DNA of 64,000 nt from an uncultured Candidatus Saccharibacteria bacterium. Lineage in GTDB: Bacteria; Patescibacteriota; Minisyncoccia; Phycocordibacterales; PALSA-1337. The stretch is from the NCBI GenBank assembly GCA_964412585.1, contig CAYPPJ010000005.1, positions 1,512 to 65,511 on the forward strand. The letters are read 5' to 3'. Under the pieces are notes generated by a model that ran no database searches, was not told the DNA's origin, and saw only the letters and a list, made by a program, of their open reading frames with translations. The translations under genes and the position numbers were made by a program. Positions 1,925-12,700 of the stretch are shown here, in pieces; the stretch's first letter is position 1, and each line of letters begins with the position of its first letter.

Positions 1925-4105
1925 TTATTTTTCTTTCTTCCTTTCCCCCTTCTCCTTCTTAACCTCCTTCTCCGCCCTCTTTTCAATCTCAATCAACTCA
2001 TCTCGTATCAACGCCGCGGTCTCAAAATCCAGCGCCTTGACGGCCTCTTCCATGGCGGCCTGTTTCTGCTTCATCAAGAGCTTAGGATTGGTGCGCGCCA
2101 GTTCTTCATCGATCTTGACGAGCTCATTGACGGCCTTCTCATGCTCGGTACGCAGCTGATCGGTAATATCATGAATAGCTTTCTTGATGGTGACCGGCGT
2201 GATGCCATGCTCCTTATTGTAGGCAATCTGCAGCGCGCGGCGGCGATCGGTCTCCTTGATGGCGCGATCCATGGAACCGGTGAGGTTGTCGGCATAGAGG
2301 ATAACACGGCCGGCGGCATTGCGGGCAGCACGACCGATGGTCTGAATGAGCGCCGTTTCGGAGCGCAAAAAACCTTCCTTGTCGGCATCGAGAATACCGA
2401 TGAGCGAAACTTCAGGCAGGTCCAGTCCCTCGCGCAGGAGGTTGACGCCCACCACGATATCGTACTTCCCTTTGCGGAAATCCGTCAGAATATTGATGCG
2501 CTCGATGGTCTTGATGTCGCTATGCAGATACACCGCCTTGATCTGCTTTTCCTTGAGGAATTCAGAGAGGTCTTCAGCCATTTTCTTGGTTAATGTGGTA
2601 GCGATCACACGGTCGCCACTTTCTATAGTCTTTTGAGCTTCTTCAATGAAGTCAAAGATTTGACCCATGTAGGGAGTTTTTGAACGTTCCTTCGAAGGGG
2701 CCTTCGGACTGAGCGAAGGCGAAGGAGAACGAGCCGCGTCCTCAGCAGAGGACGACGGCGTACCCTGAGGAGGAATGTGCGAAAACTCCCGAATGGGTCT
2801 GATTTCTACAATTGGGTCAATCAATCCAGTAGGTCGAATAACTTGCTCCACCACCTGCTTACTCGTCTCTGCTTCATATTTGCCCGGCGTGGCCGAAGTA
2901 TAGATCATCGGACCCACACGCTCGAGGAATTCATTGAACTTCAGCGGTCGGTTATCTTTTGCCGAAGGCAGTCGGAAGCCATGCTCCACCAACGTATCCT
3001 TGCGCGAAAAGTCACCCGCATACATACCATTGAGTTGCGGGATGGTCACGTGCGATTCATCGATGATGGTCAAAAAATCTGCCACCATTTTGCCCGTCTT
3101 GGGATCTTTCTTTTTTGGGAAGTACGAGAGCAGCGTATCAGGCGGCTCGCCAGGCATCATGCCGGAGAAATGTCGTGAGTAGTTCTCAATGCCGTTGGTA
3201 TAGCCAATCTCCTTGATCATCGAGAGATCGTATTTGACGCGACGCTTGAGGCGCTCGGCTTCGAGCATTTTGCCCGCCTTCTCGAGCTCTTTGAGTCGAC
3301 CGACCAGCTCGGCCTGAATGGTTTTGTAGGCACGCTCACTCTGTTCATCAGTCGAGATAAAGTGCTTGGCCGGAAAAACAAAGATGGTGTCATGTGTGGC
3401 ACGGACCGAGCGCGAGACCGGATCCAGTTCGGTGATGGTAGAAATGCTCGAACCCTCGTATTCGAGTCGATAAATCGTTTTTTCATTGACCGGCATAATC
3501 TCGATAGTATTCCCCACCGCACGGAAGTTGCCGGAGTTCACATCAGCAGTGGTGCGTTCGAAATGAATGTCGATAAGCTTGCGAATAAGTTCAGCGCGCG
3601 ACAGTTCCATGCCCACTTTCAATTTCAAATTCACCTTTTCATATTCCTCCGGACTTCCCAAACCATAGATGCAGGAAACTGAAGCCACAATGATGACATC
3701 TTTACGAGTAAGGAGCGCCTGGGTCGATGCGTGGCGAAGCCTTTCAATTTCTTCGTTGATCATTGCCTCTTTCTCAATGTAGGTATCGCTTGAGGGAATG
3801 TAGGCCTCGGGCTGGTAGTAGTCATAGTACGAAACAAAGTAGTGCACCGCATTGTTGGGGAAAAATTCACGGTACTCCTGGGCAAGCTGGGCTGCGAGCG
3901 TTTTGTTGTGAGCAATGACGAGAGTTGGTTTGCCATATTGAGCAATTACATTGGCGGCCGTAAACGTCTTTCCTGAACCGGTCACACCGAGCAGAGTCTG
4001 ACTATCGAGCCCCTTCTTGAGCCCATCCACCAACGACAAAATAGCCTTTGGCTGGTCGCCGGCTGGTGCGAAGGGAGTGGCTATTTTGAAGGGTGAACTG
4101 CTCAT
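1925..4105 (-). CDS. uvrB: excinuclease ABC subunit B
   Basis: Walker A motif GVTGSGKTFT, helicase motifs, and a C-terminal UVR domain (ALIRDELIEIEKRAE). 726 aa. Contains a ~45 aa Ser/Pro-rich insertion and a Lys/Glu-rich tail. Confidence 0.95.
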   Translation of the reverse strand: MSSSPFKIATPFAPAGDQPKAILSLVDGLKKGLDSQTLLGVTGSGKTFTAANVIAQYGKPTLVIAHNKTLAAQLAQEYREFFPNNAVHYFVSYYDYYQPEAYIPSSDTYIEKEAMINEEIERLRHASTQALLTRKDVIIVASVSCIYGLGSPEEYEKVNLKLKVGMELSRAELIRKLIDIHFERTTADVNSGNFRAVGNTIEIMPVNEKTIYRLEYEGSSISTITELDPVSRSVRATHDTIFVFPAKHFISTDEQSERAYKTIQAELVGRLKELEKAGKMLEAERLKRRVKYDLSMIKEIGYTNGIENYSRHFSGMMPGEPPDTLLSYFPKKKDPKTGKMVADFLTIIDESHVTIPQLNGMYAGDFSRKDTLVEHGFRLPSAKDNRPLKFNEFLERVGPMIYTSATPGKYEAETSKQVVEQVIRPTGLIDPIVEIRPIREFSHIPPQGTPSSSAEDAARSPSPSLSPKAPSKERSKTPYMGQIFDFIEEAQKTIESGDRVIATTLTKKMAEDLSEFLKEKQIKAVYLHSDIKTIERINILTDFRKGKYDIVVGVNLLREGLDLPEVSLIGILDADKEGFLRSETALIQTIGRAARNAAGRVILYADNLTGSMDRAIKETDRRRALQIAYNKEHGITPVTIKKAIHDITDQLRTEHEKAVNELVKIDEELARTNPKLLMKQKQAAMEEAVKALDFETAALIRDELIEIEKRAEKEVKKEKGERKKEK

Positions 4106-8538: not shown

Positions 8539-8626
8539 GTATGTATTATAGTATATCATGTTGTTGACAGAGGTTCCCAACGGGGGTAGCATTTCTGGTG
8601 AACCCAGATCTGCAAAGCGTCATACG

Positions 8627-9298
8627 ATGGCTTTGCATTACAAAAAACCAACGAAAGGCACTGCCATGAGCACAAAGCTCACCCTCCCGCCCCCTCCAAC
8701 AGCGTTGCGCAATCACCAAATACGGTTGCCCAACCCTCCGACCCGAAATGCCCGAACTCGACTCTTGGCCCAACGACCTCTCGCTTACCACTTGAGCATC
8801 CTCGGTGTTAAGCCGTTTGATGAGCACGCCATTGAGGCGTACAAGTTCGAACAGGTGTTCAAATTGCGCCATCCGCAGCGCGAATACCGGAAACTCAAAT
8901 CCTACGCCATTACGCTTGCAGTCATCGCATTCTTCGCGTACGGCGTCGGTTCAAACCTTCACAACGTCTGGACCATGATCGGCATGATCTGCGCCGGCAC
9001 TATCGCCTCCCTGATCGCCTGGGTATCTACTGGTCCGAACGAACCGATCAAGCGCCCCCTGGCACAATGGCGTGAAGTTTCGCTCGGCCATTTCCTGGAC
9101 ACGATGCTCCAAATGGTTCCGGAACCGGCCGTAGAACTTGCCGAGGAGGTCAAAACCCGCCTGCCGAGTGCCTCAGTTACGGTTGAATACTTGGACAAAG
9201 ATCCAATCATGTGGATCAAACACGAACGTCCTGGTACCAATCGTTTCGTTGAACGTTATGCAGTACAAGTCTGGGGCGAACCTGATTTCGTTCCCTGA
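8627..9298 (+). CDS. hypothetical protein with two central TM helices
   Basis: The ORF begins at 8558 overlapping tkt. In-frame ATGs occur at 8627 and 8666. Hydrophobic segments AITLAVIAFFAYGV and MIGMICAGTIASLIAWV. Confidence 0.4.
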   Translation: MALHYKKPTKGTAMSTKLTLPPPPTALRNHQIRLPNPPTRNARTRLLAQRPLAYHLSILGVKPFDEHAIEAYKFEQVFKLRHPQREYRKLKSYAITLAVIAFFAYGVGSNLHNVWTMIGMICAGTIASLIAWVSTGPNEPIKRPLAQWREVSLGHFLDTMLQMVPEPAVELAEEVKTRLPSASVTVEYLDKDPIMWIKHERPGTNRFVERYAVQVWGEPDFVP

Positions 9299-10721: not shown

Positions 10722-11054
10722 TTATTGAATGCTCACAAAATACGCAATAAAGAAGAAAATCATGACCACAAAAATCGTCACAGTGGTATATCCAAGCAAC
10801 TTGAGCGCCTCTTTCTTCTTGCCATCAAGATACCACAAGATCGGACGTCCGAGAACAAGTCCACCACATACCAGTGCAGAAAAGATGAACAACAGAAGCA
10901 TGGCCATAGGAATGAGCGCATTATCAGGTCCATGCCCAAAGATAGTGCCTGCATTGCTGACAAATAAGGCCACCAAGGCAACATAAAATGCAGTTAGGAG
11001 AGCATTGGCGAGGGCGTATTTGAGAATTGATGGTTTGTTATTCATTGAATTCAA
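10722..11054 (-). CDS. small hypothetical membrane protein (3 TM helices)
   Basis: 110-aa hydrophobic ORF. Confidence 0.45.
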   Translation of the reverse strand: MNSMNNKPSILKYALANALLTAFYVALVALFVSNAGTIFGHGPDNALIPMAMLLLFIFSALVCGGLVLGRPILWYLDGKKKEALKLLGYTTVTIFVVMIFFFIAYFVSIQ

Positions 11055-11232
11055 TTATAGCATTTTACGAAATAGTAGTCTGATTTGACATTATGAAATA
11101 GTATCTGTATAGTTTATTAAATTCTTTTCCTCTAGCTTCCCCTGCACCACTGTTGGCGCTGGGGATCTTTGGAGGAAAGGATAGTTCCTTTACAAGATTC
11201 TGACTGTTCTATCCAATCTGACTGAATGTAGT

Positions 11233-12645
11233 GTGAAAACGAAACAACCAAAATATACTGGCCGGATCATATCGATTCCGGGAAACGACGGGTACGGATT
11301 CATCGGCATCGACACGATCGGATTGAGTGAAAGCGGTGACAGTGACAACCTCGATACGAAACACGACATCTTCCTGCACAAGGATGATTGCGGGTCTCCG
11401 CTCAAGGTCGGCATGACGGTCTCCTTCGATGTCGTTCCGGACAAAACACGGGGCGAAAAACATTTCCGCGCCGTTGGTGCGGTAGAATGCCTCGAAGCCG
11501 AACTGCTCTCCCCCAACGAAGCACCTCTACCGGGTTTCATGGCTCTTGCACCATTTGGGCAACAACCTTTGGGACAAGGCTTGCCAATTCTGCCCGCCAC
11601 GCCTGCACAACGCTCCATGAAGGCCGTCCCCGAAGAGGCCGTCCAGTGCGTTGTCCGCAATGAGCCACTTCATACAATTGCTCGGGATTCGTCGGTACCG
11701 GAACAACGCGATCTTCTGATTCAGGCATTCCTCGAATTTCTCTTCCCTACCATGAAACAATTCGGCGCCTCGTTCAAACTGGACGGCAGCGACGACGTGG
11801 AGGTTGATGCCCAGATCAAAGCTGCGCAAGAAGACCACAAAGCACTCGGCATGGAGGAACAGGATACCGTTATGACCAAGGAAGTTGAACGGTTTCGTTC
11901 ATTTCGCGGCGCGTTGAAGTTCATGGTCGAAGAAAACCTCGTCCGGCGTGACACCATCATCCCAATCGAGTACCTGCCTGATTTCTTCATGGCTGTACCA
12001 GTGTGGTTCCATTACACGAACGGGGCGCTCGCGGAACTAATCGAAAATGACTGGGCCAACCATGACCCTCACATCAATTCCGCAACCAAGTACTTCTGCA
12101 ACCTGTTCCCAAACCAGCGTTGGATGGATACGTTCCTCATGTTCAATCGCCGCTTGCGCACTCTGAGGATGTACAAGGGCGACATTATTCCGCCCCACGT
12201 ACTCAGAAGGATACGGGAGGCGGCAAAACTGTTCGACCATGTCGTAATCATGACACCGTATCTCGACGTCGCCGGAAAGGACTGGCAGGATGCGGCATGG
12301 ATTCGGTCAATTGATCCGTATGTGGTTGGATTCAAACAGGGCGTCCCGTACTTCTTTGTATTGGCACGATTCAGTGACTCGGGAACGTTTCCATTGTTCG
12401 AAAAACTCCTTGCGGATACGACGGAGTTTCTCCGTGTGCACAAAAACGACTTGCGAGGTTTCGACCGAGCCAGCTTCCCGTATTGGATGAATCCGATCGA
12501 AGAAAAACCATACGAAGGCAAACTTGGCGTTCACTTGATTGAACACGTTAATATGCTGCTCACCGCCTTCGGGCAGGGCAAGCTCTTCGACTGGCTGCGT
12601 GGCACCGTCTCGGATGACGAGGTGCTCAAGACAAAGAAGAAATAG
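11233..12645 (+). CDS. cold-shock-domain fusion protein: N-terminal CSD-like OB fold plus a ~370 aa uncharacterised C-terminal domain
   Basis: The N-terminus GRIISIPGNDGYGFIG ... DIFLHKDD ... KVGMTVSFDVVPD ... RAVGAV aligns with the CspA pattern GIVKWFNADKGFGFI..DVFVHFSAI..GQKVSF. The rest has no recognisable motif. Monocistronic, with a terminator at 12664-12700. Confidence 0.6.
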   Translation: MKTKQPKYTGRIISIPGNDGYGFIGIDTIGLSESGDSDNLDTKHDIFLHKDDCGSPLKVGMTVSFDVVPDKTRGEKHFRAVGAVECLEAELLSPNEAPLPGFMALAPFGQQPLGQGLPILPATPAQRSMKAVPEEAVQCVVRNEPLHTIARDSSVPEQRDLLIQAFLEFLFPTMKQFGASFKLDGSDDVEVDAQIKAAQEDHKALGMEEQDTVMTKEVERFRSFRGALKFMVEENLVRRDTIIPIEYLPDFFMAVPVWFHYTNGALAELIENDWANHDPHINSATKYFCNLFPNQRWMDTFLMFNRRLRTLRMYKGDIIPPHVLRRIREAAKLFDHVVIMTPYLDVAGKDWQDAAWIRSIDPYVVGFKQGVPYFFVLARFSDSGTFPLFEKLLADTTEFLRVHKNDLRGFDRASFPYWMNPIEEKPYEGKLGVHLIEHVNMLLTAFGQGKLFDWLRGTVSDDEVLKTKKK

Positions 12646-12663
12646 TCAGAATCTCAACGTCAT

Positions 12664-12700
12664 TGGCGCCAACTCAGACTTGGCGCCTTTTTTATTTATA
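12664..12700 (+). terminator. intrinsic terminator (GGCGCCAA...TTGGCGCC stem followed by TTTTTTATTT)
   Basis: Read directly downstream of the 12645 stop. Confidence 0.55.

What the first reader, a model, noticed from the sequence alone, without database searches (positions are those of the whole stretch)
11233..12645. Cold-shock-domain fused to a large uncharacterised domain
The first ~95 residues align convincingly with the CspA-type OB fold (GYGFI..DIFLH..VSF..AVGAV), with a 15-aa insertion. They are followed by ~370 aa with no recognisable motif. This C-terminal part is Trp/Phe-rich (DPYVVGF, YFFVLARF).

The gene is monocistronic, with its own promoter region and a clean terminator. It is flanked by unrelated genes. 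CSD fusions to unknown domains are candidates for nucleic-acid-targeting effectors or RNA chaperone-enzyme fusions.
Basis: partly seen in the sequence, partly recalled or inferred. Interest (0 to 1): 0.65.

Follow-up and report, generated by a model that had tools for sequence, protein, structure and literature searches.

The report
Cold-shock-domain protein with orphan module, switch leader
This gene from a tiny-celled Patescibacteria bacterium encodes a real cold-shock RNA-binding domain tethered to a 350-residue module unlike any known protein, and its mRNA begins with a previously uncatalogued, conserved RNA structure that can probably fold in two alternative ways.

Summary
ORF 11233-12645 (+, GTG start, 470 aa) is a real, stand-alone gene with about 190 relatives, apparently all in Patescibacteria.

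**N-terminus.** Residues 1-88 are a divergent but genuine cold-shock domain (CSD). Single-sequence Pfam misses it, but the family profile matches E. coli CspA (hhalign 96.4%, E 1e-9). The top 27 Foldseek PDB hits are all CSD proteins. The RNP1 (GYGFI) and RNP2 (DIFLH) motifs are kept.

**C-terminus.** A disordered linker leads to a compact module (AF2 pLDDT 90, pTM 0.89). It has no Pfam, NCBIfam, PADLOC, PHROGs or PDB sequence match, and no PDB or viral fold match (best Foldseek E 0.89). It also occurs without the CSD. No neighbouring gene is conserved, and no homologue was found in phage or viral collections.

**New finding.** A conserved sigma-70-type promoter drives a ~110-nt structured leader (11122-11227).
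- It occurs in 25 of 50 further loci searched, plus two metagenome contigs, always directly upstream of this gene family.
- It is absent from Rfam.
- The 5' hairpin has strong covariation.
- A second helix and a competing alternative helix suggest a two-state switch, resembling csp-gene 5'UTR thermoswitches.
- A CUGNCUG motif before the start codon is enriched family-wide.

The function of the C-terminal module remains unknown. The "effector" reading gained no support.

The parts
11085..11113 (+). Sigma-70-type promoter: -35 TTGACA (11085-11090), 17-nt spacer, -10 TATAGT (11108-11113). The inferred transcription start is near 11120.
   Evidence: 11 of 12 consensus positions. The -35 and -10 boxes align at the same place in homologous loci, just 5' of the leader hairpin (alignment A3).
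11122..11227 (+). Conserved structured 5' leader RNA (covariance-model match).
   Evidence: Model R1 scores 94 bits, E 2e-17 in the window. 25 further loci hit at the same position upstream of homologous genes, and nowhere else in 470 kb apart from reverse-strand echoes of the same hairpins. No Rfam match.
11126..11178 (+). Leader 5' hairpin. P1 pairs 11126-11135 with 11169-11178 (pyrimidine-rich 5' arm, purine-rich GGAGGAAA 3' arm). P2 pairs 11138-11149 with 11154-11165. A small asymmetric internal loop lies between them.
   Evidence: RNAalifold: 20 of 24 pairs show compensatory changes. 93.6% of cells are paired against 42-56% in slid controls, and 0 of 500 shuffles reach the observed values. 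Window fold: -37.9 kcal/mol, z -3.3.
11179..11214 (+). Leader helix P3: GGAUAG (11179-11184) pairs with CUAUCC (11209-11214), enclosing a 24-nt loop.
   Evidence: A helix at the same position in 23 leaders uses more than 12 different arm sequences. Cognate duplex -7.9 against non-cognate -2.8 kcal/mol. The unbiased chimera control is weaker: 15.9 against 12.3.
11161..11200 (+). Alternative helix, mutually exclusive with P1, outer P2 and P3. GGGGAUCUUUGGAGGAAA (11161-11178) pairs with UUCCUUUACAAGAUUC (11185-11200).
   Evidence: A 9-16 bp duplex is found in 23 of 24 leaders, mean z -2.6 against shuffled loops. Cognate -14.7 against non-cognate -10.4 kcal/mol. Column-based support is modest: 72.7% paired against 40-62% in slid controls.
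11200..11224 (+). Two copies of CUGACUG (11200-11206 and 11218-11224) between the leader structures and the start codon.
   Evidence: CTGNCTG occurs within 60 nt upstream of 23 of 39 family genes against 3 of 417 other ORFs in the same loci (Fisher p 3e-25). It is also present in distant members that lack the hairpin.
11233..12645 (+). Coding sequence, 470 aa, GTG start, TAG stop.
   Evidence: There are 121 homologues at E<=1e-3; the full-length ones cover 95-100% of the query at 31-57% identity.
11233..11496 (+). Residues 1-88: divergent cold-shock domain (five-stranded OB barrel). It has RNP1 GYGFI (residues 20-24), RNP2 DIFLH (45-49), and a ~12-residue insertion between strands 2 and 3.
11497..11598 (+). 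Residues 89-122: acidic, Pro-rich linker predicted to be disordered.
   Evidence: pLDDT is below 50 at residues 89-93 and 100-116. Length varies across the family. Charge is -2.2.
11599..12642 (+). Residues 123-470: orphan C-terminal module. It comprises an acidic helical part with a long helical hairpin (residues 188-233), followed by an alpha/beta core. Conserved motifs: LPDxFMAVPVW, FNRRxR, GDxIPP, TPY(H)D, IDPYVVGF, ARFSDSGTFP, LFDWLRG.
   Evidence: AF2 pLDDT 90.4, pTM 0.89. Invariant residues listed. No sequence or fold match. Only 194 relatives among 1.84 billion representatives.
12665..12697 (+). Intrinsic-terminator-like hairpin (8 bp, 6 G-C pairs) followed by TTTTTTATTT, lying between convergent genes.

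Best explanation
**What it is.** A chromosomal, stand-alone gene of a Patescibacteria (CPR) bacterium. It encodes a cytoplasmic, acidic two-module protein.

**Module 1 (shown).** A divergent CspA-type cold-shock domain. It keeps the RNP1 and RNP2 aromatic/His residues that contact single-stranded nucleic acid in canonical cold-shock proteins.

**Module 2 (shown).** A compact ~350-residue helical plus alpha/beta module, joined by a ~30-residue disordered linker. It belongs to a small lineage-restricted family with no detectable sequence or fold relative. It also exists on its own, without the CSD.

**The mRNA (shown).** Transcription starts from a conserved sigma-70-type promoter. The mRNA begins with a conserved, covarying ~110-nt leader.

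**Inferred mechanism.**
- The leader is a two-state regulatory switch. State A (P1-P2 hairpin plus P3) locks away a pyrimidine-rich, anti-SD-like 5' arm. State B (the alternative helix) frees that arm.
- This resembles the mutually exclusive 5'UTR conformations that thermoregulate and CSP-regulate csp genes in S. aureus, E. coli and Listeria.
- The protein is therefore most likely a cold/stress-type RNA-binding protein. Its CSD would capture single-stranded RNA and hand it to, or anchor, the C-module.
- Its synthesis is probably controlled after transcription: by temperature, by feedback binding of its own CSD to single-stranded elements (CUGNCUG repeats, the UCCUUUAC loop), or by both.

What the C-module does chemically is not known.
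For: **Gene and family.**

**CSD.** (96.4%, E 1e-9, RNP1/RNP2 aligned).

**Linker and compact module.**

**Orphan status.**

**CSD-less and other N-terminal variants.**

**Stand-alone gene.** No neighbour is shared by more than 4 of 53 loci. Intergenic gaps lie on both sides in nearly all loci. Contexts are housekeeping genes.

**Leader.**
- Covariation.
- Exclusive association with the family.
- P3 and alternative helix.
- State A is the minimum-free-energy fold. In constrained state B, at least 4 nt of the SD/start region pair with the freed 5' arm in 12 of 18 leaders.
- CUGNCUG enrichment.

**Precedent.** csp 5'UTRs of 110-160 nt with mutually exclusive conformations, modulated by a CSP that binds a single-stranded U-rich loop: PMC8034633.
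Against: - No direct evidence that the CSD binds RNA, or that it binds its own leader.
- The protein is acidic overall (pI ~5.4; helical part charge -7.5). The C-module is therefore not an obvious nucleic-acid-binding surface.
- State A is predicted to be 5-12 kcal/mol more stable than state B in most leaders, and the gap grows at 10 C. A purely thermal switch is not evident, so a factor would be needed.
- Pairing between the 5' arm and the SD shows no covariation (cognate equals non-cognate).
- Column-based support for the alternative helix is only moderate.
- The leader is not detected in about 14 CSD-bearing distant homologues. It is clade-specific or has diverged.
- The window's own SD is weak (GUAG) and the start codon is GTG.
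Confidence: 0.5

Rival explanations
1. CSD-targeted RNA enzyme. The C-module would be a new nuclease, phosphotransferase or RNA-modifying catalytic domain. The CSD would deliver single-stranded RNA substrates, as the CSDs of RNase II/R feed the RNB domain.
For: - The alpha/beta core carries a few invariant polar residues at strand ends and helix starts: N305, D361, Y363 and R379. Near-invariant residues include R306, R307, R309, D335, T341, Y343, E391 and D395.
- The module is compact and confidently folded.
- The CSD-plus-catalytic-domain logic is established for RNase II/R (own knowledge).
Against: - No known catalytic motif or fold was found. There is no RNB, PIN, HEPN, PD-(D/E)xK or RNase H match by Pfam or Foldseek.
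- No conserved Lys or His: the His of TPYHD is Leu in the window protein.
- A single NucC hit in 1 of 53 members (E 0.003) is at noise level.
Confidence: 0.25
2. Non-enzymatic adaptor or chaperone. The C-module would be a protein-protein or RNP-docking scaffold (for example ribosome, RNA polymerase or an RNase) that positions a cold-shock-type RNA chaperone. The acidic helical hairpin could be a dimerisation or partner-binding element.
For: - The net charge is acidic and there is a long helical hairpin.
- Most invariant residues are aromatic, Pro or Gly, which suggests structural roles.
- The module functions without the CSD in many lineages.
- Contexts are housekeeping genes.
Against: No conserved neighbour points to a partner. 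The distribution is sporadic: 47 of 185,579 GTDB species by a pattern-based scan, which is a lower bound. That argues against a core-machinery role.
Confidence: 0.2
3. Conflict-system effector or toxin. A CSD would sense or target foreign nucleic acid, fused to a novel toxic domain.
For: - Distribution is sporadic.
- GC is 0.528 and GC3 0.626, against 0.466 and 0.458 for neighbouring genes (z about 2.3).
- CSD fusions do occur in predicted RNA-targeting defence systems such as CoCoNuTs (PMC11090510, listed, not read in detail).
Against: - No PADLOC family recurs.
- There is no adjacent immunity or partner gene, and no conserved neighbourhood.
- No homologue was found in phage or viral collections.
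- Full-length conservation extends across several Patescibacteria groups.
- The promoter is strong and the leader is csp-like.
- Elevated GC3 is equally compatible with high expression.
Confidence: 0.05

Closest known systems
Bacterial cold-shock proteins (CspA/CspB family, Pfam PF00313 CSD)
   Same: Both share the five-stranded OB barrel. RNP1 (GYGFI against GFGFI) and RNP2 (DIFLH against DVFVH) align. Both are acidic. Both genes carry a long structured 5'UTR.
   Different: Canonical Csps are single-domain proteins of ~70 aa. Here the CSD has a 12-residue insertion, is too divergent for a single-sequence Pfam hit, and makes up only the first 19% of a 470-aa protein.
csp-gene 5'UTR thermoswitches (E. 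coli cspA, L. monocytogenes cspA, S. aureus cspB/cspC; PMC8034633)
   Same: The 5'UTR is ~110 nt. A long 5' hairpin sequesters a pyrimidine-rich, anti-RBS-like strand. A mutually exclusive alternative pairing exists. Single-stranded pyrimidine-rich motifs are available for CSP binding.
   Different: There is no sequence or Rfam similarity. The downstream gene is a multidomain protein. RBS sequestration and temperature dependence are not demonstrated. The predicted energy gap favours one state at all temperatures.
RNase II / RNase R (CSD1-CSD2-RNB-S1) and other CSD-enzyme fusions
   Same: An N-terminal CSD is followed by a large (>300 aa) alpha/beta domain, so the same logic of feeding single-stranded RNA into a larger module could apply.
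   Different: No RNB domain is detected by Pfam or by fold. There is a single CSD, no S1 domain, and a flexible linker.
Eukaryotic CSD fusion proteins (Lin28, YB-1, Unr)
   Same: The CSD serves as a single-stranded RNA-recognition module attached to other parts. These proteins appear among the fold hits.
   Different: The partner domains differ (zinc knuckles, disordered tails, tandem CSDs). No homology exists outside the CSD.
Autoregulatory leaders of RNA-binding proteins (ribosomal-protein leaders)
   Same: A structured leader is found strictly upstream of the gene for one RNA-binding protein family, independent of synteny.
   Different: Binding of the product to the leader is untested. No mimicry target is known.

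Membership tests
Cold-shock domain (PF00313, CspA-type OB fold) | Five-stranded antiparallel beta-barrel (OB) fold | tested here: met
   The AF2 model has strands at 7-14, 21-24, 46-49, 62-69 and 78-85. The top 27 Foldseek PDB hits are all CSD proteins, prob 1.00.
Cold-shock domain (PF00313, CspA-type OB fold) | RNP1 (K/G-G-F/Y-G-F-I) and RNP2 (V-F-V-H) nucleic-acid-binding motifs | tested here: met
   GYGFI (20-24) and DIFLH (45-49) align with CspA GFGFI and DVFVH. F23, D45 and H49 are invariant and F47 is near-invariant in the family.
Cold-shock domain (PF00313, CspA-type OB fold) | Significant sequence match to the CSD profile | tested here: met
   The single sequence gives no Pfam hit at E<=10. 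At family level: hhalign 96.4%, E 1e-9; 4 of 53 members hit PF00313; the PDB profile search returns only CSD proteins.
Cold-shock domain (PF00313, CspA-type OB fold) | Binds single-stranded RNA or DNA | not testable with these tools
   Inferred only from conserved RNP residues.
Canonical small Csp (CspA family protein) | Single-domain protein of ~65-75 aa | tested here: not met
   The protein is 470 aa, with a 350-aa additional module.
RNase II/R family | RNB catalytic domain following the CSD(s) | tested here: not met
   No RNB hit in Pfam for 53 members. No RNase II/R structure appears among the Foldseek hits.
Known anti-phage defence proteins (PADLOC) | Match to a defence-family profile and a conserved multi-gene locus | tested here: not met
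   No recurrent PADLOC hit in 53 members. No conserved neighbour.
csp-type 5'UTR RNA switch (functional class) | Long (110-160 nt) 5'UTR upstream of a CSD-encoding gene | tested here: met
   The promoter -10 box ends at 11113 and the start codon is at 11233, giving a leader of ~112 nt.
csp-type 5'UTR RNA switch (functional class) | Two mutually exclusive conserved conformations | tested here: met
   P1/P2 has strong covariation. The alternative helix uses the same 3' strand in 23 of 24 leaders. Its column-based support is moderate.
csp-type 5'UTR RNA switch (functional class) | One conformation sequesters the ribosome-binding site | tested here: inconclusive
   In constrained folds, the freed 5' arm pairs with at least 4 nt of the SD/start region in 12 of 18 leaders. 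There is no covariation.
csp-type 5'UTR RNA switch (functional class) | Temperature- or CSP-dependent switching | not testable with these tools
   Predicted free-energy differences favour state A at both 10 C and 37 C. Experiments are needed.
Rfam cspA thermoregulator or any Rfam family | Covariance-model match | tested here: not met
   No leader match at E<=1 in the window or at E<=0.1 in six other loci.

The most novel reading that the evidence does not exclude
The C-terminal module is a new protein fold with a new RNA-directed activity, specific to Patescibacteria. The leader is a new class of protein- and/or temperature-responsive riboregulator, through which the CSD-X protein senses its own level or the cold. 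Together they would form a self-contained post-transcriptional stress circuit in ultra-small bacteria.
Probability: 0.3. Interest if true: 0.8.

Novelty: new variant of a known kind. Interest (0 to 1): 0.6.

Why it matters
Patescibacteria are abundant, mostly uncultured bacteria with reduced genomes, and their regulation is almost unknown.

This locus offers three things:
- A confidently folded ~350-residue domain family with no sequence or fold relative in the libraries searched. It is a candidate new fold or activity, attached to a nucleic-acid-binding handle.
- A new structured RNA motif with strong covariation and apparent bistability. It is tied to a single gene family and can be tested directly by probing, reporter assays and binding assays.
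- Evidence that csp-style 5'UTR switching extends to a multidomain CSD protein in a deeply divergent lineage.

If the leader is bound by its own product, the leader would also reveal the protein's RNA recognition motif and so give a route to its cellular targets.

Tried and rejected
**Single-sequence searches.** Pfam, NCBIfam, PADLOC, PHROGs and PDB gave nothing.

**Family-wide scans for recurrent weak hits.** Only one-off hits at noise level appeared: baeRF_family2, PLN_propep, NucC, oMTase, PhoU.

**C-module profile against PDB sequences.** Two spurious hits at E 0.5 and 1.6.

**Fold searches.**
- The PDB search with the C-module alone gave a best E of 0.89 and TM<=0.19.
- BFVD returned only CSD hits.

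**Catalytic motifs checked by eye.** PD-(D/E)xK, RNase H-like, HEPN, PIN, nucleotidyltransferase and SGNH ideas were checked against the conserved motifs and dropped. The required residues are not conserved: there is no invariant Lys or His, and His344 is Leu in the window protein.

**Conserved-neighbour search.** No family is shared by more than 4 of 53 loci.

**Phage or viral origin.** No matches.

**Leader.**
- Pairing between the 5' arm and the SD as a covarying helix is not supported.
- RNAalifold on the sub-region predicted nothing, because the MAFFT alignment varies in register.
- The RNAalifold \"helix 3\" (A3 columns 118-127) was replaced by the longer-range P3.
- No intrinsic-terminator-like U-run follows either hairpin, so transcription attenuation is unlikely.
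- Model R1 with filters off finds no leader in 12 more distant or CSD-less loci. L030 keeps P3, the alternative helix and the CUG repeats but lacks P1. L015, L033 and L009 carry CUA-type repeats instead.

**Literature.** A search for CSD proteins in Patescibacteria found nothing relevant.
Full report
**1. The observation**

Public gene calls on 11 contigs give the identical 470-aa product. The quoted motifs are present: GYGFI at residue 20, DIFLH at 45, DPYVVGF at 361 and YFFVLARF at 373.

A sigma-70-like promoter, TTGACA-17-TATAGT, lies at 11085-11113 and matches 11 of 12 consensus positions. A G+C-rich hairpin followed by a T-run lies at 12665-12697. The neighbours are unrelated housekeeping genes on the opposite strand: rpe, rpiB, a small membrane protein, a Mur ligase and FemAB.

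**2. The N-terminal domain is a cold-shock domain, but a divergent one**

The single sequence hits nothing in Pfam, NCBIfam, PADLOC, PHROGs or PDB, even at E<=10.

Family-level evidence rescues it:
- 4 of 53 homologues reach PF00313, best E 9.3e-6.
- A profile of 20 N-termini aligns to E. coli CspA with hhalign probability 96.4% and E 1e-9. RNP1 (GYGFI/GFGFI) and RNP2 (DIFLH/DVFVH) are in register, and a 12-residue insertion lies between strands 2 and 3.
- All 35 PDB sequences matched at E<1 are CSD proteins.
- The AF2 model (pLDDT 88) has five strands. Its top 27 Foldseek PDB hits are all CSD proteins at probability 1.00.
- G10, F23, D45, H49, F65 and A80 are invariant in the family.

Retention of nucleic-acid binding is inferred from these residues. 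It was not tested.

**3. The C-terminal module is an orphan**

Residues 89-116 are predicted to be disordered. Residues ~120-470, folded alone, give pLDDT 90.4 and pTM 0.89.

The module consists of:
- short N-terminal helices;
- a long helical hairpin (residues 188-233 in full-length numbering);
- an alpha/beta core.

The conserved motifs are LPDxFMAVPVW, FNRRxR, GDxIPP, TPY(H)D, IDPYVVGF, ARFSDSGTFP and LFDWLRG.

Nothing known matches it:
- No Pfam family recurs among 25 or 53 members.
- No NCBIfam or PADLOC family recurs.
- The profile search against PDB gives only two spurious hits.
- Foldseek against PDB gives a best E of 0.89, probability 0.04 and TM<=0.19.
- BFVD returns only CSD hits.

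The family is small and closed. An exhaustive HMM search of 1.84 billion representative proteins with the C-module profile finds only 194 proteins at E<=1e-3.

The N-termini of those proteins vary:
- Many carry the CSD.
- One subfamily has a different, CSD/OB-like N-terminus (P0154, P0187 and others).
- Many proteins of ~370-420 aa have no CSD at all.

The module is therefore an autonomous unit.

The family's distribution and composition were also examined:
- 47 GTDB species representatives carry the family. Nearly all are labelled as Patescibacteria groups: Moranii-, Kaiser-, Nomura-, Uhr-, Doudna-, Taylor-, Falkow-, Kuenen- and Andersenbacteria, and Paceibacterota.
- The protein is acidic: family median pI 5.4, helical part charge -7.5.
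- The invariant polar residues are few: N305, D361, Y363 and R379. No Lys or His is invariant.

I could not assign a catalytic class.

**4. Genomic context**

Across 53 loci, no neighbouring gene family is shared by more than four loci. The gene is separated from its neighbours by intergenic gaps on both sides almost everywhere. Contexts are housekeeping genes. No homologue was found in INPHARED phages or IMG/VR contigs.

This argues against an operon-encoded system or a mobile defence island. The gene's GC (0.528) and GC3 (0.626) lie about 2.3 sd above those of other genes in the window. That is compatible with either high expression or foreign origin.

**5.

Folding the upstream regions of homologues showed the same ~55-nt hairpin at about -120 to -60 in most loci.

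*Promoter and hairpin.* An alignment of 17 upstream regions shows conserved -35 and -10 boxes immediately 5' of the hairpin. The structure therefore sits at the 5' end of the mRNA, with transcription starting near 11120. RNAalifold predicts P1 (10 bp: pyrimidine-rich 5' arm, purine-rich GGAGGAAA 3' arm) and P2 (11 bp). 20 of 24 pairs show compensatory changes. 93.6% of cells are paired against 42-56% in slid controls, and 0 of 500 shuffles reach the observed values.

*Specificity.*
- A covariance model (R1) finds the element in the window (11122-11227, 94 bits) and in 25 other loci. Every hit lies directly upstream of the homologous gene on its strand.
- There are no other hits in 470 kb, apart from reverse-strand echoes of the hairpins.
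- A degenerate DNA pattern scanned over the metagenome collection gave five hits. The two that are true model matches (79.5 and 71 bits) are both followed by a family gene.
- Rfam 15 has no match.

*Further elements.* Downstream of P1, a helix P3 (window GGAUAG 11179-11184 with CUAUCC 11209-11214) recurs at the same position with more than 12 different arm sequences. An unbiased chimera control supports it less strongly: 15.9 against 12.3.

*An alternative pairing.*
- The 3' half of P1/P2 (11161-11178) is complementary to the 5' part of the P3 loop (11185-11200) in 23 of 24 leaders. The duplex is 9-16 bp, with mean z -2.6 against shuffled loops.
- Cognate duplexes average -14.7 kcal/mol against -10.4 for non-cognate pairs.
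- On a fixed-register MAFFT alignment the column statistics are moderate: 72.7% paired against 40-62% in slid controls, and covariation score 0.335 against 0.271, reached by 3 of 500 shuffles.
- This helix cannot coexist with P1, the outer part of P2, or P3. The leader therefore appears to have two mutually exclusive conformations.

*Energetics.* State A (P1-P2 plus P3) is the predicted minimum-free-energy fold. It is 5-12 kcal/mol more stable than state B in most leaders, and more so at 10 C. In constrained state B, the freed anti-SD-like 5' arm pairs with at least 4 nt of the SD/start region in 12 of 18 leaders. That pairing shows no covariation, so I treat it as inference only.

*A repeated motif.* CUGNCUG occurs within 60 nt upstream of 23 of 39 family genes, against 3 of 417 other ORFs (p 3e-25). 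The window has copies at 11200-11206 and 11218-11224. The motif also occurs in distant members that lack the hairpin.

*Limits of the distribution.* The leader is not detected in 12 more distant or CSD-less loci, even with the model's filters off. All six CSD-less loci that have upstream sequence lack it. So do about 14 CSD-bearing loci (Fisher p 0.004 without correction for phylogeny).

**6. Interpretation**

The leader has the defining anatomy of csp-gene 5'UTR switches. Those are 110-160 nt long. A long hairpin sequesters an anti-RBS strand, a mutually exclusive alternative fold exists, and a CSP modulates the switch by binding a single-stranded U-rich motif. This has been shown for S. aureus cspB/cspC and proposed to be general for csp genes (PMC8034633).

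I therefore read the gene as a cold/stress-type RNA-binding protein under post-transcriptional control. Its CSD tethers single-stranded RNA to an orphan module of unknown activity.

| Status | Points |
|---|---|
| Shown | the gene; the CSD; the orphan, autonomous module; the stand-alone context; the promoter; P1/P2 covariation; the exclusive link between leader and gene family; the CUGNCUG enrichment |
| Supported but weaker | P3; the alternative helix |
| Inferred | switching; RBS control; autoregulation or thermosensing; RNA as the substrate of the C-module |

**7. Rivals**

| Reading | Confidence |
|---|---|
| New RNA enzyme | 0.25 |
| Non-enzymatic adaptor or chaperone | 0.20 |
| Conflict-system effector | 0.05 |

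The first two are variants of the best explanation that differ only in what the C-module does.

**8. Novelty and score**

The CSD itself is ordinary. The combination is not. It comprises a lineage-restricted, confidently folded module with no sequence or fold match. It also includes a new covarying, apparently bistable leader RNA that is absent from Rfam.

I rate it a new variant of a known kind (a CSD fusion protein with csp-like regulation), with interest 0.6.

Noticed in passing
window 11122-11227 (+), and the same position in L001, L003, L005-L014, L016, L017, L019-L023, L025, L026, L028, L029, L035, L054, L056: A conserved, covarying ~110-nt 5' leader RNA with an apparent two-state fold. 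It occurs exclusively upstream of this gene family and is not in Rfam. It is now part of the main report.
   Followed up: yes
window 11200-11206 and 11218-11224; upstream of family genes in L003, L008, L010, L022, L030, L041, L043, L045, L047 and others: CUGNCUG repeats with 4-nt periodicity, for example CUGACUGACUGGAGG, lie directly 5' of the SD or start codon. They occur upstream of 23 of 39 family genes against 3 of 417 other ORFs. L015, L033 and L009 carry CUA(N)CUA-type repeats instead. What binds them is unknown.
   Followed up: partly
window 11233-12645: The gene's GC (0.528) and GC3 (0.626) are about 2.3 sd above those of the 40 other long ORFs in the window (0.466 and 0.458). This may reflect codon bias from high expression or horizontal acquisition. 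It was not resolved.
   Followed up: no
L024 (3986-5146) and L032 (Uhrbacteria): These close relatives (38-45% identity) start right after the CSD. No leader was detected upstream of either gene, and in L024 an opposite-strand ORF ends 44 nt upstream. The CSD and leader may have been lost together by a 5' deletion. Whether these copies are functional or pseudogenes was not examined.
   Followed up: partly
L030 about 3850-3980: A variant leader keeps P3 (GGAUAG/CUAUCC), the alternative helix and the CUG repeats but has no P1 5' arm. It is a natural "half-switch" that could be informative for the mechanism.
   Followed up: no
window 8558-9298 (+): A 246-aa ORF lies in a locally GC-rich stretch (0.52-0.55). 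It is Pro/Thr-rich at the N-terminus and has one predicted hydrophobic segment. It overlaps the end of a minus-strand ORF. It was not analysed.
   Followed up: no
window 10722-11054 (-): A small (110 aa) hydrophobic, membrane-like ORF is transcribed divergently from the CSD-X gene and shares the 179-bp intergenic region. It has no Pfam hit in public gene calls. It is not conserved next to homologues.
   Followed up: no
window 12647-12694 (+): A weak Rfam hit to Burkholderia sRNA ncS54 (20.8 bits against a gathering score of 43, E 0.13) overlaps the terminator hairpin. It is almost certainly a chance match to a terminator.
   Followed up: no
P0154, P0187, P0182, P0203, P0172, P0227: A subfamily has a different N-terminal domain of ~130-165 aa with a CSD/OB-like pattern (GKVV..GY.FI....NGDVFCP...VG..V.F). 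It gives no Pfam hit. It may be a second, even more divergent OB-fold partner for the same C-module.
   Followed up: partly
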